Program-made: the position numbers and the translations under genes | Shown here: in pieces, positions 41,141-55,387 of the stretch | Numbering within the stretch: the first letter of the stretch is position 1 | How the letters are laid out: each line of letters opens with the position of its first letter | Assembly: GCA_964538435.1 (NCBI GenBank) | Contig: CAZIDX010000008.1 | Location: 1 to 60,909, forward strand | DNA: 60,909 nt | From: an uncultured Gammaproteobacteria bacterium | Lineage (GTDB): Bacteria > Patescibacteriota > Patescibacteriia > UBA9934 > GWF2-40-263 | Reading direction: 5' to 3' | The notes under the pieces: generated by a model | Databases searched by the model: none | Told to the model about the DNA's origin: nothing | Seen by the model: the letters and a program-made list of their open reading frames with translations, nothing else

Positions 41141-44100
41141 ATGAGTTACAACCACCAAGAGATTGAAAAGAAATGGCAGGATCGTTGGTTTTCAACCGAC
41201 GTCTTTCACGCCAAGAACGACTCTGATAAAGAGAAGTTTTATTGCTTGATTGAGTTCCCATACCCATCGGGGGCTGGCCTGCACGCTGGGCACCCACGAA
41301 GCTACACAGCGCTCGACGTGGTTGCGCGCAAGCAGCGTCATCTTGGCAAGAACGTTCTCTATCCAATTGGATGGGATGCGTTTGGGCTTCCAACAGAAAA
41401 CTACGCCATCAAGACCGGACGTAAGCCGCAGGATATTACAAAAGAAAATACAGACAAATTCCGTGAGCAGCTTAAGGGTCTTGGAATCTCTTTTGATTGG
41501 TCGCGCGAGATCAACACCACAGACCCGGAATACTACAAGTGGACGCAGTGGATGTTCCTTGAGTTTTTCAAAGCAGGCCTCACGTACAAATCAAATCTTG
41601 CTATCAACTGGTGTCTCTCTTGCAAGATTGGGCTTGCAAACGAAGAAGTGGTAAACGGTGCCTGTGAGCGCTGTGGTGGGGAAGTAGAAAAGCGGGACAA
41701 AGAGCAATGGATGATTGAGATCACAAAATACGCCGAGGAGCTTCTATCAGGACTCGATGAGGTCAATTATCTTGAAAAGATTAAAACGCAGCAACGCAAC
41801 TGGATCGGAAAGAGCGAAGGAGCCATGGTGGACTTCGAGGTTGCTGACCCACTGGGGCCTGTCACACCAGTGATCCGAGTGTTCACCACACGCCCAGACA
41901 CACTTTTTGGTGCAACCTACATGGTGCTCGCTCCAGAGCACGAGCTGGTTGAGCAGATTACGAGCAGTGAAAAGATGGGAGAGGTGAGCGAGTACGTCAA
42001 AGAAGCAAAAGCAAAAGCAGATATTGACCGAACGAACGACGAGAAAGAAAAAACAGGAGTCTTCACGGGTAGCTATGCAATCAACCCAGTCAATGGAGAA
42101 AAGATTCCAATCTGGGTAGCTGACTACGTAATGATGGGCTACGGAACAGGAGCCATCATGGCCGTCCCAGCCCACGACGAGAGGGACTTTGCATTTGCGA
42201 CCAAGTACGAGATCCCAATCATCAAGGTGGTTGAGCCTCCAGTGCTCCAGAACGTTATCAACCCAGACATCGGCATCGCCCACGCCATGCAGTCTGACAT
42301 CAAGATCGAACATGAATGCTACACAGGCGAAGGAAAGGCGATTAACTCTGGAGAGTTCAACGGACGTTCAACCGAAGAGTTCAAGACCGCCATCACAAAA
42401 TGGCTCGAAGAAAAAGAACTCGGAAAAGCCGCAACAAACTACAAGCTCCGAGACTGGGTCTTCTCCCGCCAGCGCTACTGGGGTGAGCCAATCCCGCTTG
42501 TGTACTGCCAGGCATGTCACAATAAGACAATTGAAAGAGATAATGTTGTAATCTTTCACGGCTGGGAAGACACATCCGAGCACACATTCATCCCAGGGCT
42601 CCGAGAAGAGCTCGAGAAAAAGAACTACAACACCCACGCCTTTGACGCTCCAAATCCAATGGAGCCGAATTTTGATGAGTGGTGGAAGTTTGCAAACGAA
42701 AAACTCGAAGGAATCAACACAGAAAACCTCGTACTCGTCGGTCACAGCATGGGTGGTGGGCTTGCGTGTAAGCTCGCAGAGAAATACAAAGTCAAAAAAC
42801 TTGTTCTTGTAGCTCCGGTTGGGTTCAAAGGTTCAGATGAGTACTTTGCTCAGTTCAAAGATGAGCTCACAGAGGATGAAATGAACACCTTTCGCTCTTA
42901 CATGGACCGAGAACTTGATATTAAAAAAGTGAAAGAGAACGTTGATGAAATCACTGTTATCTTTGGAGAGGATGACAAGTGGATCTCAAAGGAAGTTCAG
43001 GATTTCTACAAAACAAACTTTGGTGACGTGGCACAGATTGTCACCTGGCCAGGTGTAGGTCATATGGGGGGAGAAGAAGGAGCCAAGTTTGCTACAAGAA
43101 TCTCAAAGTATTTTGACACAAAAGACTTCTCAGGCTGGATCCCAGTTCCAGAAGCCGAGCTTCCTGTCACGCTCCCAGACGTAGAAAAGTACGAGCCAAC
43201 AGATTCAGGCGAGTCTCCGCTTGCAGTCATCGAGGACTGGGTGAATACAACCTGTCCTGAGTGTTCAGGGCCAGCCAAGCGAGAAACTGACACCATGCCA
43301 AACTGGGCAGGATCAAGCTGGTACTTCCTCGCCTACGCAATGAAACTCACAAACGATTTCAAATTCCCAATGAGCTCGTACGCGGATGTTCTGAAAAAAT
43401 GGATGCCTGTCGATTTCTACAACGGTGGAAACGAACACATCACACTTCACCTTCTTTACTCACGCTTTTGGAACAAGGTGATGCATGATCGTGGTCATGT
43501 GCCAGTGTCAGAGCCTTACAAGCGACGTCATGGTCACGGCCTTGTGCTTGCAGAGGATGGCACGAAGATGAGTAAGTCAAAGGGGAATGGAGTAGATCCA
43601 GATGAAGTCATTCGAGAGTACGGAGCTGATGCGCTGCGCATGTACATCATGTTCATGGGTCCATTTGAAGAACCAGCACCATTTAACATGAGCGGACTCA
43701 TCGGCGTGCGCCGCTTCCTCGACAAAGTCATGCGCTATGTTTCAGATTGGAACGAGAGTGGTGCAGAAGACCTCGGAAAGATTATCGAACCTCACATCAA
43801 AAAGGCTTCAGATGATATTGATAACTTTAGGTTTAACACAGCAGTTTCTAGTTTCATGAAGCTCTTCAACGAGCTCGGCGACAAAGCTTGCACCAAAGAT
43901 CAGCTCAAGCGGATCCTCACCGTGCTTTGCCCATTTGCTCCTCATATCGCAAACGAGTGCTGGGAAATGATCGGGGAGACAGGTCTTGTTGAAGAACAAG
44001 CTTGGCCAGAGTTTGACGAGAGTCTGCTCATCCGCGACACCATCGAAATGGGAGTCCAAGTAAACGGAAAAGTCCGTGCCAGCATCCAGCTTGCTCCAGA

Positions 44101-44227
44101 CGCAAGCGAGGAGGAAGCAAAAAAGATCGCGCTCGCAGAAGAAAATATTCAAAAACATCTTGAAGGCAAAGAGATTGTAAAGATCATCTACGTACCAGGT
44201 CGCATCCTAAACATTGTCGTGAAATAG
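41141..44227 (+). CDS. leuS: Leucyl-tRNA synthetase carrying an inserted alpha/beta-hydrolase domain
   Basis: HIGH (HAGH), KMSKS, CP1 editing domain (TRPDTLFGATYMVLAPEH) and zinc knuckles. The product is 1028 aa because of an insert of about 205 aa at residues ~460-665. Confidence 0.95.
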   Translation: MSYNHQEIEKKWQDRWFSTDVFHAKNDSDKEKFYCLIEFPYPSGAGLHAGHPRSYTALDVVARKQRHLGKNVLYPIGWDAFGLPTENYAIKTGRKPQDITKENTDKFREQLKGLGISFDWSREINTTDPEYYKWTQWMFLEFFKAGLTYKSNLAINWCLSCKIGLANEEVVNGACERCGGEVEKRDKEQWMIEITKYAEELLSGLDEVNYLEKIKTQQRNWIGKSEGAMVDFEVADPLGPVTPVIRVFTTRPDTLFGATYMVLAPEHELVEQITSSEKMGEVSEYVKEAKAKADIDRTNDEKEKTGVFTGSYAINPVNGEKIPIWVADYVMMGYGTGAIMAVPAHDERDFAFATKYEIPIIKVVEPPVLQNVINPDIGIAHAMQSDIKIEHECYTGEGKAINSGEFNGRSTEEFKTAITKWLEEKELGKAATNYKLRDWVFSRQRYWGEPIPLVYCQACHNKTIERDNVVIFHGWEDTSEHTFIPGLREELEKKNYNTHAFDAPNPMEPNFDEWWKFANEKLEGINTENLVLVGHSMGGGLACKLAEKYKVKKLVLVAPVGFKGSDEYFAQFKDELTEDEMNTFRSYMDRELDIKKVKENVDEITVIFGEDDKWISKEVQDFYKTNFGDVAQIVTWPGVGHMGGEEGAKFATRISKYFDTKDFSGWIPVPEAELPVTLPDVEKYEPTDSGESPLAVIEDWVNTTCPECSGPAKRETDTMPNWAGSSWYFLAYAMKLTNDFKFPMSSYADVLKKWMPVDFYNGGNEHITLHLLYSRFWNKVMHDRGHVPVSEPYKRRHGHGLVLAEDGTKMSKSKGNGVDPDEVIREYGADALRMYIMFMGPFEEPAPFNMSGLIGVRRFLDKVMRYVSDWNESGAEDLGKIIEPHIKKASDDIDNFRFNTAVSSFMKLFNELGDKACTKDQLKRILTVLCPFAPHIANECWEMIGETGLVEEQAWPEFDESLLIRDTIEMGVQVNGKVRASIQLAPDASEEEAKKIALAEENIQKHLEGKEIVKIIYVPGRILNIVVK

Positions 44228-49442: not shown

Positions 49443-49979
49443 ATGGCATCGACAAGAAAGAAGTTGGAAGACGTCTACTCAGGCCTGTCACCGGCAGCAA
49501 GAGCCTGGCTACTCAACGGCAAGATCACGCTCAAGGACGCTGAGCTCATCACAGAGGAGGAGATGAGTGAGCAAGAAGCCCTCGAGTGGATTCAGCGGTT
49601 CCGGATCAACAAGCGGTGGATCTGGGATCAGTGTGCATGCATCAAGGCGATCACGGACTTGTCCGGGCTCATCGATGATATTCTCGCCTACGAGGCGGTC
49701 AACGCGTTCTCCACAGAACAGTTCCTCATCGGAGATCTCACGCTCGAGCAGATGCGATATGCCTGCCTGAAGATGATGGGGCGCCGCAGTGTGCGCATGT
49801 TCACCCTGCTCAACTACCCAGGCATGGTGCAAGAGCGCCGCAACCTCGCTTACGATGCTCGCCGCAAAGCAGCCAAGCGTCGACCTGTACGTGCCAAGAG
49901 CAGCTCCAGGCAATGGGATCACTTCCTGCGTCACCACCACACCCAGGTTCGGGTGGGAGACACCGCGATCTTCATCTGA
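49443..49979 (+). CDS. Hypothetical 178-aa protein (GC-rich islet gene)
   Basis: Candidate promoter TTGACG-17-TAGCCT (49366-49394). A terminator cccgcaa...ttgcggg follows the stop. I recognise no domain. Confidence 0.45.
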   Translation: MASTRKKLEDVYSGLSPAARAWLLNGKITLKDAELITEEEMSEQEALEWIQRFRINKRWIWDQCACIKAITDLSGLIDDILAYEAVNAFSTEQFLIGDLTLEQMRYACLKMMGRRSVRMFTLLNYPGMVQERRNLAYDARRKAAKRRPVRAKSSSRQWDHFLRHHHTQVRVGDTAIFI

Positions 49980-51302: not shown

Positions 51303-51812
51303 ATGCCAAGACAAAAAGGAAAAGGTGAGAATCTCATAACCTCCACTCTAGAATTTCTTAGCAATGGTGCTTGTGAAGCAAATCACTTGTTTGATTTGTG
51401 GACAGGGGACTCCAGAACAAGGAAAAGTATGGGGTGTGAAAAAACCTATCAAAGCAAAAAAGCCAGACTCAGGTATTTAAAAGAGAAAAAACTTATCGCT
51501 GTTAAAAAGAAAGAAGATAAAGTGATTGTTGAGCTGACAAAAAAAGGTGACAGAGAAAGAAAAAAACGCAGAAAAAATAAAGCAAGCAAACTACCTGTCA
51601 ATCAGGTGTGTTTAGTCACCTATGATATTCCTACTACTGCAAATAAGGCCAGAGATGCTTTTCGGTTCTTTTTGAAAAAACTTGGTTTCAAGAAAATAAA
51701 CCAGAGTGTCTGGCAGACAGAGTTTAATGTCATCGATGAGGTTCTGGGTTTTGTAAGGAAGGCAAAGATAGGTGAGTGGGTGTGTGTCTTTGTCGCAGCA
51801 AAAACAGGGTAA
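51303..51812 (+). CDS. wHTH plus Cas2-like (ferredoxin-fold) domain protein, PaaX-like architecture; paralog 2
   Basis: 169 aa. VCLVTYDIPTTANKARDAFRFFLKKLGFKKINQSVWQT. It aligns along its full length with 6988..7515. Confidence 0.6.
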   Translation: MPRQKGKGENLITSTLEFLSNGACEANHLFDLWTGDSRTRKSMGCEKTYQSKKARLRYLKEKKLIAVKKKEDKVIVELTKKGDRERKKRRKNKASKLPVNQVCLVTYDIPTTANKARDAFRFFLKKLGFKKINQSVWQTEFNVIDEVLGFVRKAKIGEWVCVFVAAKTG

Positions 51813-51984: not shown

Positions 51985-52012
51985 TTGATTCGAAATGTCA
52001 GAATGGTATATT
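51985..52012 (+). promoter_or_regulatory. Promoter of the 52018-52298 transcript
   Basis: TTGATT (51985-90), 16 nt spacer, TATATT (52007-12). Confidence 0.5.
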
Positions 52013-52017
52013 TAATT

Positions 52018-52298
52018 ATGCCTTACGGTCGAGTGGGTGTGTTCCACCTACAACAATCTAAACCTGGCCTGGGAATGCGCGGCTTCGGCAACGCAATAAG
52101 GCCAACCCGGTTCATCCGACTGATGTGGACGACATGGTGGATTCGACAAGCTGCCATCATCGCTACAGTGCCGGATAGATGCGTGCTCGAGAGGACTGCA
52201 AACAGGAGTACTCGTCAGACCGAACATGAACCCGTAATCATTGGGCCGCCCACTTCCCCGTTAGGCGCTAAAAGCCACCCAGCATTGGGTGGTTTTTC
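52018..52298 (+). ncRNA. Candidate structured ncRNA (~280 nt, GC-rich) between its own promoter and terminator
   Basis: Hand-found helices are 52031-39/52247-55, 52065-69/52100-04, 52076-79/52092-95 with a UUCG-capped tip, 52109-15/52226-32 and 52134-40/52154-60. The terminator is ccaccca-gcat-tgggtgg+ttttt (52275-97). The only ORF runs through the terminator and the next promoter. Confidence 0.4.
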
Positions 52299-52303
52299 AT
52301 TGA

Positions 52304-52332
52304 TTGACAATTTGGGTTATTTTTCCTAATCT
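52304..52332 (+). promoter_or_regulatory. Promoter of the 52367 gene
   Basis: TTGACA (52304-09), 17 nt spacer, TAATCT (52327-32). It is similar in sequence to the promoter at 53853. Confidence 0.6.
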
Positions 52333-52366
52333 AACCCTCTGCTCTTTCCAAGACGGAGATCTGTAC

Positions 52367-53356
52367 ATGACGTACAAACATAACTGCACAGGCTGCGGCA
52401 AATGCAAGCTCGAAGTTGAGTTGCCTCAGAGGGTCAGGAAGATTCTAGGTGACAATACAGCGATCGCAGAACCGTTCTTCATCAACGATCCAACGGACAT
52501 GGGTGCGCTCAAAGACGCATTTGTGCAGAGGGTGGGCGGTGAAGGTCCGATGATTGATGCTGTTGCATATGCAAATGCCGTGATGCGTCTTTCCTTGAAT
52601 GTGAAACGTGGTGCCCTCGAAGTCATGATGACTCACTACCAAGAGATGAGTAATCGAATGGTGGAGATTTGGGGATCGCACGAAAGCAGTGTTCGAGCCC
52701 TGATGGCTGCTGAAAAAGCTGGTATCTGTTTTGCGACCTACGAAGAAACCATTGAGATGTTTCGCATGGTCGTTTCTGTGCTTGAGAAAACTCACAGCTT
52801 TGAGCCTGCTGAGGACGAAACAGAAGAGCAGCAGCTTGTGGAATTGTGGGAGGTCATTGCGTGGCGCTTCGGAAAGTGCTTCGGTGCTGATAAGTACCTT
52901 GAGCGTGAAGAACTCCCGCCTTCAATGCAAGTCCCTACATTTGCTCCTGCGTTCTGCATCTCAATGCTCATGCAGCTAGGTGCCAACTCTGCACTCGATG
53001 TCATGTTGCGCAGAGCAGGCGAGGTGAATGAAGCCGAACGCGATCAGGTGTGTGTCGAGGATTTCTGGGCAGTCGTTGCAGCTCTCTCGAGCCGGAGTGT
53101 CACACTCGAAGAGTTCAAGAAACTCATCGAAATATCTGGGGTGTGGAAGTTTGTTGCGCTAGGACCGCTCGCACAATCGCGTGTGGTAAATGCGCACGTG
53201 TTCAGGCAATTAATAAACAATCCTCAGATCATCCAGGACCGCAGTGCTAATGAGATTGTCTCGCTCCTAAACGACTGGCACCAAGTTCGTCGCCGTGTCC
53301 GTCTCAATGAGTTTGCTCAGCGTTGGGGAAGCCTCGATGCTTACACAGCCTGGTGA
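52367..53356 (+). CDS. Hypothetical 329-aa protein, homologous to the N-terminal two-thirds of 53910..55322
   Basis: ATG at 52367 lies after GGAGA and downstream of the promoter. N-terminal CTGCGKCK. Alignable blocks with the fused paralog include DFWAVVAAL.../DIWLAVRAAH... and EIVSLLNDWHQ/EIMNLTEQWHS. Confidence 0.5.
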   Translation: MTYKHNCTGCGKCKLEVELPQRVRKILGDNTAIAEPFFINDPTDMGALKDAFVQRVGGEGPMIDAVAYANAVMRLSLNVKRGALEVMMTHYQEMSNRMVEIWGSHESSVRALMAAEKAGICFATYEETIEMFRMVVSVLEKTHSFEPAEDETEEQQLVELWEVIAWRFGKCFGADKYLEREELPPSMQVPTFAPAFCISMLMQLGANSALDVMLRRAGEVNEAERDQVCVEDFWAVVAALSSRSVTLEEFKKLIEISGVWKFVALGPLAQSRVVNAHVFRQLINNPQIIQDRSANEIVSLLNDWHQVRRRVRLNEFAQRWGSLDAYTAW

Positions 53357-53362
53357 GCGTTC

Positions 53363-53827
53363 ATGCGAGCAAGCAAGAAACCCAAGAAGCCTCCTCTCAC
53401 CCCGAGCGTCGTCCAAGCACCCGTGTCATCCAAGCCTGCACCAGAACCCGAACTCGAGGAAACCAAGCTTGCCCCCGATGGAATCGACTGGGACTGGGTC
53501 ATGGCCGAGCTCATGGTTGAGGATCAAGTTCCTGATCTGGACCCACGACTCGTGCGCATCACGATTGTGCACGGCCTGCTCCGCCAGGGTGATCGCATGT
53601 CCTCCATGGACCGACTACCCACACGGAGCCGTAGGCGATTCTGGAAAGAGTGTCGAGGCGCTGGAGTCAATCGCTCAAAGCTCGAAGCCGTTCGCGACCA
53701 GCTCAAGACACGTGGACTCATCAAGCTCAAGGCAGGAAAGTACTCCCTCGCCAGTCAGCTGAGTGTTGCCGACGAACTCCACATCCTTCACGACCGCATC
53801 CGAGAACTCTCGGAGCGCTACGTATAG
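53363..53827 (+). CDS. Hypothetical 154-aa protein (Pro/Lys-rich linker plus winged-helix-like domain), homologous to the C-terminal third of 53910..55322
   Basis: It is in the same frame as 52367..53356, separated only by TGA plus 2 codons. GIDWDWVMAE...LDPRLVRITIVHGLLRQGDRM...FWKECRG...GLIKLKAGKYSLA matches GLDWDWVMAE...LDPCIVRVIIVHGMLRSGDRV...LWKECEG...GLIERKKGKYSLA. Confidence 0.5.
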   Translation: MRASKKPKKPPLTPSVVQAPVSSKPAPEPELEETKLAPDGIDWDWVMAELMVEDQVPDLDPRLVRITIVHGLLRQGDRMSSMDRLPTRSRRRFWKECRGAGVNRSKLEAVRDQLKTRGLIKLKAGKYSLASQLSVADELHILHDRIRELSERYV

Positions 53828-53828
53828 A

Positions 53829-53849
53829 CCCACCAAATGGTGGGTTTTT
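53829..53849 (+). terminator. Intrinsic terminator after 53363..53827
   Basis: cccacc-aaat-ggtggg followed by ttttt. Confidence 0.65.
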
Positions 53850-53852
53850 CTG

Positions 53853-53881
53853 TTGACAAATGGGGGATTTTTGACTAATGT
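53853..53881 (+). promoter_or_regulatory. Promoter of the 53910 gene
   Basis: TTGACA (53853-58), 17 nt spacer, TAATGT (53876-81). Confidence 0.6.
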
Positions 53882-53909
53882 GATTTCTGCTCTTTTAATT
53901 GGGAGGAAC

Positions 53910-55322
53910 ATGCGAGTCATCATGAAGCTCGTGAATCAAATAGAGGTTACGTACCCAATCGTTCCCAACTCCAACCACCTGCGAGACCAGGAATTCATCA
54001 AGGAAGCACTCATCCAAGTCTGTTGTGAAAGCGAGCCCCCAGTTTGGGTCGAAATGTGGTTCCCGATCGCTATGGTCCGCCACTATCTGGAGCAAAACCC
54101 CATCAGGGTCAAGCAGGCCAACGATATCTTGTCCAAGATCATTCTGGATCACACAAAGATCTGGGGTGGAGCCTCACACGAAGCTCTTGGTGCGCTTGCG
54201 ATTGCAGAGGCCGTAGGGCTTCAGTTCGATTCCCATCGCGAGACCATGCAAGCGTTCACGCGCATACTCAAGGTCATCAACCGGAATAAAAAGTGGGACC
54301 ACTCAACGATCGCACTTTGGAAACGTGCAATCAGTGCAATGACTTCACGGGCCACGCCCGGCGGACAAGACTTCACTGAGTTGTATGACCGGCTAGAGGT
54401 TCCACCCTGGCTTCCTGGCTATTGCCTGGATCTGCTCTGTCAACTCGATGTAGACGACCCAACAGGCGTGAAGCACGTCTCATTCGATGATGGCACCACA
54501 GTTGTCAAAATGGACATTGGAGCTCCAGACATCTGGCTTGCTGTAAGGGCGGCACATGAACTCACACTCGGTGAAGTGCAGATCAGACGCTTCATCAAGG
54601 AGCATGGGCTTGTTAGGTTCATCTGGCTTGGTATGTGTTATAGCGAGAAGCTGATCAATCGATCGGCGTTCCTTCGCATGACCGCAAAACCAAGCCTCAT
54701 CAAAAACCTCTCCATGATCGAGATTATGAATTTAACAGAGCAGTGGCACAGTGCTGGGTGTCCTGATCTCGACAAGTTCATCAAGGTCGGGGGGACAGTC
54801 GAAAGCTTCGAGAGGCATCAGCAAGCTGAGCAAGAGCGACAGGCAGAGATACAAAGGCAGAAGCGTCGCAAACCTCAGCCCAAGCCCGAGCCAAGGGCGG
54901 CAGCGCCAGTCTACGTTGCTCCCAAACCCGAGCCTAAGCCAGAACCTGCCGCACTTGTTCCCGAAGGACTTGATTGGGACTGGGTCATGGCTGAGTTCAC
55001 TGGAGTCGAGGAGGTTTTCCCAAATCTGGATCCATGCATTGTGCGCGTGATCATCGTGCACGGAATGCTCAGGTCTGGAGACCGAGTCATGCCCATGGGA
55101 AGGCTTCCATCCAAGAAACTTCCAAAGCTCTGGAAAGAGTGCGAGGGTCCGCTGTGCTCGGACAAAGGGCAGTTCACAGGCGCACTCGAGCATCTCCGCA
55201 GAAGCGGCCTGATCGAACGCAAGAAAGGGAAGTACTCCCTGGCGCGAGCTCATCCACGCAACAAAGAGATGCATCCCATCCTCGAGCAGATCGAAGCGGT
55301 CTGCCAGAGGTACGCATCCTGA
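53910..55322 (+). CDS. Hypothetical 470-aa protein, the fused paralog of the 52367 and 53363 pair
   Basis: ATG at 53910 is preceded by GGGAGGA. It is colinear with the two upstream ORFs, including a Pro/Lys/Glu-rich linker (KPQPKPEPRAAAPVYVAPKPEPKPEP). Confidence 0.55.
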   Translation: MRVIMKLVNQIEVTYPIVPNSNHLRDQEFIKEALIQVCCESEPPVWVEMWFPIAMVRHYLEQNPIRVKQANDILSKIILDHTKIWGGASHEALGALAIAEAVGLQFDSHRETMQAFTRILKVINRNKKWDHSTIALWKRAISAMTSRATPGGQDFTELYDRLEVPPWLPGYCLDLLCQLDVDDPTGVKHVSFDDGTTVVKMDIGAPDIWLAVRAAHELTLGEVQIRRFIKEHGLVRFIWLGMCYSEKLINRSAFLRMTAKPSLIKNLSMIEIMNLTEQWHSAGCPDLDKFIKVGGTVESFERHQQAEQERQAEIQRQKRRKPQPKPEPRAAAPVYVAPKPEPKPEPAALVPEGLDWDWVMAEFTGVEEVFPNLDPCIVRVIIVHGMLRSGDRVMPMGRLPSKKLPKLWKECEGPLCSDKGQFTGALEHLRRSGLIERKKGKYSLARAHPRNKEMHPILEQIEAVCQRYAS

Positions 55323-55387
55323 GGGGTCTTCGGACCTCCATGCTCCGACCGTAGCGTCGGAGTTTTCTTAAACAAACAGCACTTTAC

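What the first reader, a model, noticed from the sequence alone, without database searches (positions are those of the whole stretch)
52304..55322. Tandem paralogous module of unknown function, once interrupted by a single in-frame TGA and once as a fused 470-aa ORF
ORFs 52367..53356 (329 aa) and 53363..53827 (154 aa) are colinear with the N- and C-terminal parts of 53910..55322 (470 aa). Shared blocks include WG.HES/WGGASHE, DFWAVVAAL/DIWLAVRAAH and NEIVSLLNDWHQ/IEIMNLTEQWHS. After a Pro/Lys-rich linker come G(I/L)DWDWVMAE, LDP.(L/I)VR(I/V).IVHG(L/M)LR.GDR, (F/L)WKEC.G and GLI..K.GKYSLA, which looks winged-helix-like. The two short ORFs are in the same reading frame and separated only by TGA-GCG-TTC-ATG. 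Reading through that one stop would recreate the fused architecture. The promoters of the two copies are also similar (TTGACAatttgggttatttttccTAATCT versus TTGACAaatgggggatttttgacTAATGT), as are their upstream terminators. That points to a duplication of the whole unit. I recognise no known family. The N-terminal CTGCGKCK cluster occurs only in the split copy. The options are a recent nonsense mutation, a true gene fission, or programmed TGA readthrough that produces two isoforms.
Basis: seen in the sequence. Interest (0 to 1): 0.7.

Follow-up and report, generated by a model that had tools for sequence, protein, structure and literature searches.

The report
Split copy of orphan DNA-binding family
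Two neighbouring genes of a previously undescribed protein family found only in a small group of tiny uncultured bacteria (Candidatus Uhrbacteria); one copy has been cut in two by a single stop codon in the flexible linker between its two domains. This looks like ordinary gene turnover in a fast-evolving family, not a special recoding mechanism.

Summary
ORFs 52367..53356 and 53363..53827 are colinear with the N- and C-terminal parts of 53910..55322 (BLASTP E=7e-18 and 6e-33). They share a frame and are separated only by TGA-GCG-TTC.

The window comes from a Candidatus Uhrbacteria (CPR) chromosome that uses TGA as a normal stop. The proteins belong to an orphan family of about 40 representatives among 1.8 billion proteins. 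Nearly all are fused proteins of 460-530 aa, with no Pfam, NCBIfam, PHROG, PADLOC or PDB sequence match. Each has a fast-evolving all-alpha N-domain with no PDB fold match, a disordered linker and a MarR-like winged-helix C-domain.

Family genes sit in tandem cassettes, each with its own terminator, promoter and gene. There are 1-6 per locus and at least 11 in one genome, and copies are gained and lost.

The duplication is old, and both fused orthologs of the split copy lack the stop. The TGA is therefore a lineage-specific nonsense change in the linker. An ATG with a GGTGA Shine-Dalgarno-like motif follows 6 nt later, and both pieces still look coding. I read it as a young gene fission or an incipient pseudogene. 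Programmed readthrough has no support.

Separately, a conserved, unclassified structured ncRNA lies just upstream.

The parts
52304..52332 (+). Promoter of the split copy (copy A): TTGACA, 17 nt, TAATCT
   Evidence: Pattern match. The same -35/-10 layout directly after the upstream terminator precedes family genes in L001, L010, L008 and L011.
52367..53356 (+). Copy A, N piece: 329 aa, all-alpha N-domain, ending in TGA. A GGAG Shine-Dalgarno motif ends 8 nt before the ATG.
   Evidence: ORF. 22% identity, E=7e-18, to the N part of copy B. AlphaFold2 pLDDT 83.6, pTM 0.81. Codon-usage score 0.33, within the range of genuine genes. No closer relative in 5.8 billion proteins.
53354..53356 (+). In-frame TGA that splits copy A. 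It falls just after the last helix of the N-domain, at the start of the disordered linker.
   Evidence: Sequence. Alignments with the fused relatives show sense codons at this position in P0004 and L004. The linker is disordered in the model of copy B, residues 321-355.
53352..53356 (+). GGTGA, a Shine-Dalgarno-like motif that overlaps the stop codon and ends 6 nt before the ATG of the C piece
   Evidence: Only about 8 of 46 genes in the window have a motif of 5 nt or more. A random codon is followed within 3 codons by an ATG with such a motif in 0.6% of positions.
53363..53827 (+). Copy A, C piece: 154 aa, Pro/Lys-rich linker plus winged-helix domain
   Evidence: 45% identity, E=6e-33, to copy B. 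69% identity to the C-domain of fused P0004 and 66% to the fused L004 gene. dN/dS 0.20 versus L004. Codon-usage score 0.41.
53826..53847 (+). Intrinsic terminator of copy A
53853..53881 (+). Promoter of copy B: TTGACA, 17 nt, TAATGT
   Evidence: It aligns with the promoter upstream of P0002 in L001.
53910..55322 (+). Copy B: fused 470-aa protein (P0001). N-domain residues 22-320, disordered linker 321-355, winged-helix C-domain 356-468. A GGGAGG Shine-Dalgarno motif ends 3 nt before the ATG.
   Evidence: ORF. AlphaFold2 pLDDT 89.4. Foldseek hits to MarR-family regulators for the C-domain. Ortholog P0002, 39% identity, sits at the same syntenic place in L001.
55342..55363 (+). Intrinsic terminator of copy B

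Best explanation
The region holds two members, A and B, of a multigene family specific to a clade of Candidatus Uhrbacteria.

Each family protein has three parts: a roughly 300-aa all-alpha N-terminal domain that evolves very fast, a disordered charged linker, and a conserved C-terminal winged-helix domain of the MarR type. The most likely role is sequence-specific DNA binding: one-component regulators whose variable N-domain is the input or partner-binding part. That role is inferred from the fold only.

Each gene is an independent cassette with its own strong sigma-70-type promoter, Shine-Dalgarno motif and terminator. Cassettes are duplicated, diverge and are lost (birth-and-death evolution).

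A and B were both fused in the common ancestor of the window organism and its relatives. In the window lineage, a single nonsense change created a TGA in the disordered linker of copy A. The stop lies between the domains and is followed 6 nt later by an ATG with a GGTGA ribosome-binding motif. The transcript is therefore expected to yield two polypeptides by termination-reinitiation: the N-domain (329 aa) and linker plus winged helix (154 aa). This would be a young gene fission whose pieces still look like working genes.

Shown: paralogy, family membership, folds, orthology, the fused state of the orthologs, and TGA as a normal stop.
Inferred: DNA binding, the regulator role, and translation of the C piece.
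For: - Paralogy.
- Family size and architecture: 41 representatives at E<=1e-3 among 1.84 billion proteins, almost all 443-534 aa and fused.
- Arrays: BH28 has six genes in a row at the same GNAT...YerC locus, one more upstream and four at a second locus, and all ten genes scanned in its two arrays are intact. The organism name comes, and the window's GyrA is 81-82% identical to Uhrbacteria MAGs.
- Cassette structure.
- Folds.
- Copy A orthologs are fused. P0004 is 489 aa with a C-domain 69% identical to the C piece. The L004 gene has a C-domain 66-69% identical.
- Copy B ortholog P0002 is at the syntenic site.
- TGA is a stop in 10 of 45 long ORFs.
- The stop lies at the domain boundary.
- ATG with GGTGA: only 0.6% of codon positions have this by chance.
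- No promoter or terminator lies between the two pieces.
- Both pieces score as genuine coding sequence: 0.33 and 0.41, against 0.43 +/- 0.18 for genes and -0.57 off-frame.
- C piece dN/dS is 0.20.
- The 329-codon N piece is intact although it is only about 20% identical to its orthologs' N-domain, which could not happen under neutral drift.
Against: - Nothing shows that the C piece is translated or that the separated domains work.
- The family demonstrably loses copies. L001 keeps only a promoter, an ATG and the last 17 or so codons of copy A. L004 has no copy B. L011 has a frameshifted member.
- dN/dS averages over a long, saturated divergence and says nothing about the time since the stop arose.
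- The two pieces are still exactly in frame, and the C piece keeps the whole disordered linker. That fits a very recent mutation as well as, or better than, an established fission.
- Foldseek E-values for the winged helix are weak (0.1-1), although probabilities are 0.9-0.99 and the hits are consistent.
- Most genes in this genome lack a Shine-Dalgarno motif, so its weight for initiation is uncertain.
Confidence: 0.5

Rival explanations
1. Incipient pseudogene. The TGA is a recent inactivating mutation in a redundant paralog that is on its way to being lost. The pieces have no function of their own.
For: - The family shows repeated loss and decay: a copy A relic in L001, no copy B in L004, and a frameshifted member in L011.
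- Relatives carry either A or B alone, so the two look dispensable individually.
- The pieces are still perfectly colinear and in frame, as expected right after a single point mutation.
- The N piece is by far the most diverged N-domain of its ortholog group: about 20% identity, against 51% between the other two A orthologs.
Against: - There is only one disabling change. Both pieces keep a normal codon-usage signature.
- The N piece has an intact 329-codon frame and a confidently predicted family fold.
- C piece dN/dS is 0.20.
- The stop lies in the one place where it does least harm and is followed by an ATG with a ribosome-binding motif, a combination expected at about 0.6% of positions. A selective filter on surviving mutations could also produce this.
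Confidence: 0.3
2. Assembly or sequencing error, or a minority variant. In the real population copy A is a normal fused gene of about 486 aa.
For: - All other full-length family genes seen are fused.
- The window appears to be a single metagenomic contig with no second copy in the databases, so the base cannot be cross-checked.
Against: - Substitution errors in consensus assemblies are rare.
- Nothing in the local sequence, such as a homopolymer or repeat, suggests an error-prone site.
- Reads are not available, so this was not tested.
Confidence: 0.1
3. Programmed recoding. The TGA is read through, or decoded as selenocysteine, Trp or Gly, to give a fused isoform alongside the short one.
For: - The two ORFs are in frame, and readthrough would recreate the family architecture.
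- UGA preceded by UGG is a codon that tRNA-Trp can occasionally misread (general knowledge).
Against: - The stop is not conserved. Both orthologs have sense codons in an unconserved linker.
- There is no stable or unusual RNA structure around or after the TGA: z=+0.53, and 138 of 200 shuffles fold at least as well.
- TGA ends 10 of 45 long ORFs, and core genes are unbroken under table 11, so there is no code change.
- The base after the stop is G, which is not a known leaky context (general knowledge).
Confidence: 0.03
4. Chimeric origin. The N piece is not the old N-domain of copy A but comes from another, unsampled paralog by recombination. Stand-alone N-domain paralogs of about 370 aa exist. 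The C piece would then be a 5'-truncated copy A.
For: - The N piece is about 20% identical to every known N-domain, including its supposed orthologs. The C piece is 69-70% identical to them.
- N-domain-only paralogs P0040 and P0041 exist.
Against: - The last 60 or so residues of the N piece carry A-group signatures (PQII.D, VRL..FA...G...AY.A). They are more similar to A orthologs (25-33%) than to B orthologs (21-25%).
- The exact in-frame colinearity with only two codons between the pieces is most simply explained by a point mutation.
Confidence: 0.07

Closest known systems
MarR-family and related winged-helix transcription regulators (for example SarZ 3hsr, MexR 1lnw, NadR 5aiq, SlyA 3qpt)
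   Same: The C-terminal 110 or so residues are modelled with high confidence as helix, short strand, helix, recognition helix, beta-hairpin wing and C-terminal helix. Their best structural matches are MarR-family proteins (Foldseek probability 0.9-0.99, TM about 0.35-0.44 on the target). The motif L..L...GLI....G.Y.L is typical of the recognition helix plus wing.
   Different: - No sequence-profile match to any Pfam or NCBIfam winged-helix model.
- The domain sits at the C-terminus behind a 300-aa unrelated domain and a 35-50-aa disordered linker.
- The MarR dimerisation helices were not identified.
- DNA binding is untested.
Gene fission (split genes) with translational coupling in bacterial operons
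   Same: The break is at a domain boundary. The two cistrons are co-oriented in one transcription unit. The stop and the next start are 6 nt apart, with a ribosome-binding motif overlapping the stop.
   Different: The split is seen in one genome only. The orthologs are fused. There is no evidence that selection has maintained the split state.
Lineage-specific tandem multigene families that evolve by birth and death
   Same: - Copy number varies from 1 to 6 per locus between related genomes.
- Each copy has its own promoter and terminator.
- Relics and frameshifted members exist.
- One domain diverges much faster than the other.
   Different: The family is cytoplasmic-looking (no signal peptides noted) and has a DNA-binding-type domain, unlike classic surface-antigen families. 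No recombination or switching machinery lies nearby.

Membership tests
Winged-helix (MarR-like) DNA-binding domain | Winged helix-turn-helix fold (helices plus beta-hairpin wing) | tested here: met
   AlphaFold2 model of copy B: residues 356-468 have pLDDT above 90 and show H375-387, H404-411, H419-432, E435-438, E441-444, H452-468. The top 10 Foldseek PDB hits are all MarR-family regulators or MarR-like domains, probability 0.84-0.99, but with E=0.1-0.6.
Winged-helix (MarR-like) DNA-binding domain | Match to a curated sequence model of the family (Pfam MarR, MarR_2, HTH_27 and similar) | tested here: not met
   No Pfam or NCBIfam hit for any of 38 members at E<=0.01, apart from scattered chance hits.
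Winged-helix (MarR-like) DNA-binding domain | Binds DNA as a dimer | not testable with these tools
   This needs EMSA, DAP-seq or a structure.
Programmed stop-codon readthrough or selenocysteine recoding | The in-frame UGA is conserved in orthologs | tested here: not met
   P0004 and the L004 gene are uninterrupted, and the position lies in an unalignable linker.
Programmed stop-codon readthrough or selenocysteine recoding | A stimulatory RNA structure (SECIS-like hairpin) just downstream of the UGA | tested here: not met
   Fold of 53330-53450: -22.4 kcal/mol, z=+0.53 versus shuffles.
Alternative genetic code (UGA as a sense codon, as in Gracilibacteria or Absconditabacteria) | UGA occurs in frame inside conserved genes and is not used as a terminator | tested here: not met
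   10 of 45 long ORFs end in TGA. GyrA, LeuRS, IF-2 and FtsH are unbroken under table 11.
Pseudogene | Disruption relative to intact orthologs | tested here: met
   One in-frame stop, against the fused P0004 and L004 genes.
Pseudogene | Further decay: additional stops or frameshifts, loss of coding signature, dN/dS near 1 | tested here: not met
   No further lesions. Codon-usage scores are 0.33 and 0.41, like real genes. C piece dN/dS is 0.20. The N piece value of 0.38 has saturated dS and is therefore inconclusive.
Functional gene fission | Break at a domain boundary, with a start codon and ribosome-binding site for the downstream piece | tested here: met
   The TGA lies right after the last N-domain helix. 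ATG follows 6 nt later, preceded by GGTGA.
Functional gene fission | Split state maintained by selection in related genomes | not testable with these tools
   No close relative of the window's copy A exists in the searched collections. The more distant orthologs are fused.
Tandem multigene family (birth and death) | Several paralogs in tandem, with copy number differing between related genomes and relics of lost copies | tested here: met
   Copy counts: window 2, L001 1 plus a relic, L004 1, L011 at least 3 with one frameshifted, BH28 6+1+4.

The most novel reading that the evidence does not exclude
The family is a diversifying recognition system private to a clade of Uhrbacteria. A constant winged-helix output domain is coupled to a hypervariable N-domain with a new fold. 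That N-domain is under selection to change specificity, for example in sensing host- or phage-derived molecules or in paralog-specific partner binding. The system is expanded to at least 11 copies in a genome of about 1 Mb, in a group generally described as having few regulators (general knowledge, not tested here). On this reading, the split copy is a natural experiment showing that the two domains can act as separate subunits.
Probability: 0.15. Interest if true: 0.7.

Novelty: new variant of a known kind. Interest (0 to 1): 0.42.

Why it matters
The stop codon itself is ordinary gene turnover. The family it sits in is of some interest.

It is an undescribed protein family confined to a clade of Candidatus Uhrbacteria. 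It has a confidently predicted N-terminal fold with no counterpart in the PDB. It is amplified in tandem, with up to six genes in one array and at least eleven in one small CPR genome, and its N-domain evolves faster than any neighbouring gene.

CPR bacteria are generally described as having few regulators and very reduced genomes (general knowledge, not tested here). An expanded set of winged-helix proteins with a variable input domain could therefore be a clue to how these organisms sense partners or defend themselves. The split copy offers a natural test of whether the two domains work when uncoupled.

The conserved, unclassified structured RNA found next to the array is an independent lead.

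Tried and rejected
- **Sequence-profile searches gave nothing.** Pfam, NCBIfam, PHROGs and PADLOC searches of the three ORFs and of family members found nothing meaningful. A profile search of PDB sequences gave only E=0.49.
- **Foldseek on the N-domain gave only noise.** Against the PDB, the N-domain model hit designed helical repeats at TM below 0.25. The full-length copy B model against BFVD gave only noise for the N-domain part.
- **The word-indexed protein search was nearly blind to the family.** It found 1 relative with P0001, 0 with P0003 and 3 hits with the family profile. The exhaustive HMM search was what revealed the family.
- **Several collection scans came back empty.**
  - The genome-contig scans with P0001 and with the C-domain alignment.
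  - The first metagenome scan, which was swamped by the PEPEPE linker pattern.
  - An alignment containing partial rows, which the tool rejected.
- **Some data could not be retrieved.** P0001 is not on record in the contig index. DNA for the P0004 contig was unavailable, so dN/dS within the A group could only use L004.
- **A functional link between the upstream ncRNA and the family was rejected.** The RNA occurs without family genes in L015, L017 and L018.
- **The ncRNA being tmRNA, RNase P, SRP or 6S RNA was rejected as far as Rfam and ARAGORN can tell**.
- **hyp178 (49443..49979) as a decayed family member was rejected**.
- **Horizontal acquisition was rejected.** GC content of the module matches the window.
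- **A literature search for Uhrbacteria paralogs found nothing relevant**.
Full report
**1. Observation**

The three ORFs exist as described:
- 52367..53356: 329 aa, TGA stop.
- 53363..53827: 154 aa, TAG stop.
- 53910..55322: 470 aa, TGA stop.

The two short ORFs share a frame and are separated by TGA-GCG-TTC. BLASTP gives 22% identity (E=7e-18) between the 329-aa ORF and residues 82-300 of the 470-aa ORF. It gives 45% identity (E=6e-33) between the 154-aa ORF and residues 332-468. A three-way alignment is colinear throughout. It places the stop just after the last conserved N-domain motif, at the start of a Pro/Lys/Glu-rich linker.

The two TTGACA-N17-TAAT promoters are real. Only 4 such sites occur in the window, against 0.31 expected. 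Terminator hairpins follow each unit.

**2. Organism and genetic code**

The window is a bacterial chromosome fragment encoding GyrA, IF-2, FtsH, RNase Y, LeuRS and ComEC. Its GyrA is 81-82% identical to several Candidatus Uhrbacteria MAGs.

TGA ends 10 of 45 long ORFs, and the core genes are unbroken under table 11. The TGA is therefore not a sense codon in this organism.

**3. The family**

No Pfam, NCBIfam, PHROG or PADLOC model and no PDB sequence matches. The word-indexed search of 5.8 billion proteins found one relative, P0002.

An exhaustive HMM search of 1.84 billion cluster representatives found 41 proteins at E<=1e-3. Nearly all are 443-534 aa and cover the whole profile. The fused architecture is therefore the norm.

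AlphaFold2 with this alignment gives a confident model of the fused copy (pLDDT 89.4):
- Residues 22-320: an all-alpha domain.
- Residues 321-355: disordered.
- Residues 356-468: a winged helix.

Foldseek against the PDB returns MarR-family regulators (SarZ, NadR, MexR, HucR, RovA, SlyA), T4 MotA and Fur for the C-domain. Probabilities are mostly 0.9-0.99 but E-values are weak at 0.1-1.

The 329-aa piece modelled on its own is also confident (pLDDT 83.6, pTM 0.81). It has no structural neighbour in the PDB, with TM below 0.25.

**4. Genomic organisation in relatives**

The locus is syntenic across relatives: NDK, GNAT, (Cas2-like), ncRNA, family genes, YerC-like, AspA-like, GNAT, Dtd.

| Source | Family genes at this locus |
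|---|---|
| L001 | One fused gene (P0002, the ortholog of the window's fused copy B), preceded by a relic |
| L004 (FLOH01000188.1) | One fused gene whose C-domain is 66-69% identical to the window's C piece; no copy B |
| P0004 contig (JGI) | P0004, 489 aa and fused, C-domain 69% identical to the C piece, followed by another divergent paralog |
| Uhrbacteria BH28 | Six family genes in a row, one more after NDK, and four at a second locus; all ten genes scanned in the two arrays (six plus four) are intact |
| L011 | Two intact genes plus one broken by a frameshift inside a conserved motif |

The relic in L001 consists of a family-type promoter, an ATG, the last 17 or so codons of an A-type gene (MSIHTLHDRIRAISEKYAT*) and a terminator.

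Almost every family gene is preceded by the same layout: a terminator hairpin, then TTGAC(A), about 17 nt, a -10 box, a 35-45-nt leader and a strong Shine-Dalgarno motif. The amplification unit is therefore the whole cassette. The family evolves by birth and death.

**5. Age and orthology of the two window copies**

C-domain identities define two groups:
- Group A: the window's split copy, P0004 and the L004 gene, at 69-79%.
- Group B: the window's fused copy and P0002, at 60%.
- Between the groups: 44-50%.

The A/B duplication therefore predates these organisms. The similar promoters are conserved features, not traces of a recent duplication.

N-domains evolve much faster. P0004 and L004 are 51% identical, and B and P0002 are 35%. 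The window's N piece is only 17-21% identical to any of them. Its last 60 or so residues keep A-group signatures.

**6. What the TGA is**

Both A orthologs are uninterrupted, so the stop arose in the window lineage in a formerly fused gene. It lies in the disordered, unalignable linker.

- An ATG follows 6 nt downstream, preceded by GGTGA.
- Only about 8 of 46 genes here have a Shine-Dalgarno motif of 5 nt or more.
- A random codon is followed within three codons by an ATG in 6.7% of positions, and by an ATG with such a motif in 0.6%.
- No promoter or terminator separates the pieces.
- Both pieces have the codon-usage signature of real genes: 0.33 and 0.41, against 0.43 +/- 0.18 in frame and -0.57 out of frame.
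- C piece dN/dS against L004 is 0.20.
- The N piece keeps an open 329-codon frame despite extreme divergence. That rules out long neutral decay.
- No RNA structure accompanies the stop (z=+0.53).

I therefore favour a real, lineage-specific nonsense mutation that leaves a two-cistron unit able to make both domains separately. That is a young fission.

The same data also fit a very recent inactivating mutation in a family that visibly sheds copies. A base-call error cannot be excluded without reads. Programmed readthrough or recoding has no support.

**7. Function**

Function is inferred only from the fold and the organisation. I propose winged-helix DNA-binding proteins, probably one-component regulators, with a variable N-terminal input or partner domain.

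More distant paralogs carry a basic P.G.KR motif in the linker. Some paralogs begin with hydrophobic helices.

I could not find an operator motif beyond the shared promoter layout.

**8. Side finding**

- It is 81-88% identical at the nucleotide level to L001 and L004. The reading frame is not conserved, as an indel breaks it.
- It is present in seven Uhrbacteria-type genomes.
- It has 56 consensus base pairs, 94% of them paired.
- 15 pairs show changes on both sides, against 7.8 +/- 1.8 in shuffles and 4-6 in slid controls.
- It has no Rfam or ARAGORN match.
- In three of the genomes it is not followed by family genes, so it is not functionally tied to them.

**9. Verdict**

The split is ordinary. 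The family is new but built on a known kind of DNA-binding domain.

Noticed in passing
window 52019-52297 (+); promoter 51985-52012; terminator 52275-52297: A conserved structured ncRNA of about 250-280 nt with its own promoter and terminator. Seven homologues were found in Uhrbacteria-type genomes. It has 56 consensus pairs, 94% paired, and 15 pairs with two-sided changes against 7.8 in shuffles. There is no Rfam family at E<=10, and ARAGORN does not call it a tmRNA. Its identity is unknown. In three genomes it occurs without the protein family.
   Followed up: partly
window 41141-44227 (+): The leucyl-tRNA synthetase is 1028 aa and carries an inserted alpha/beta-hydrolase (Ser_hydrolase) domain at residues 469-648. 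The LeuRS of a syntenic relative (L019) is 807 aa, and no hydrolase family is listed for it.
   Followed up: partly
L001 2510-2606: A relic of a deleted family gene: a family-type promoter, an ATG and the last 17 or so codons (MSIHTLHDRIRAISEKYAT*), followed by a terminator. It lies just upstream of the intact paralog P0002.
   Followed up: yes
L011 12-1216: A family member broken by a 1-nt frameshift inside the conserved W..G.P..L..F motif. It is followed by two intact paralogs. It is either a second, independent case of decay in the family or a sequencing error.
   Followed up: partly
window, all genes; family genes at 52367, 53363, 53910: Only about 8 of 46 genes in the window have a Shine-Dalgarno motif of 5 nt or more. 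The family genes here have Shine-Dalgarno motifs of 4-5 nt (GGAG, GGTGA, GGAGG), and those in BH28 and L011 have strong ones. In all three places a consensus TTGACA -35 box sits directly after the upstream terminator.
   Followed up: partly
window 51303-51812 (+): A 169-aa protein with a PaaX-type Cas2-like domain, in a low-GC stretch (38%). It is present in L004 but absent from the same position in L001.
   Followed up: no
proteins P0040 (L019 8001-9122) and P0041: Distant paralogs of about 370 aa that consist of the N-domain only, with no winged helix. P0040 sits directly after NDK. P0041 is probably the gene downstream of P0004.
   Followed up: partly
proteins P0021, P0025, P0028 (first gene of the BH28 array, L010 5141-6718): These paralogs begin with one or two hydrophobic helices, which suggests a membrane-anchored variant of the family.
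   Followed up: no
loci L018, L025, L030-L032 and others: Many TPA MAGs labelled 'uncultured Gammaproteobacteria' carry an Uhrbacteria-like GyrA (65-76% identity). L018 also carries the Uhrbacteria ncRNA. The taxonomic labels are probably wrong.
   Followed up: no
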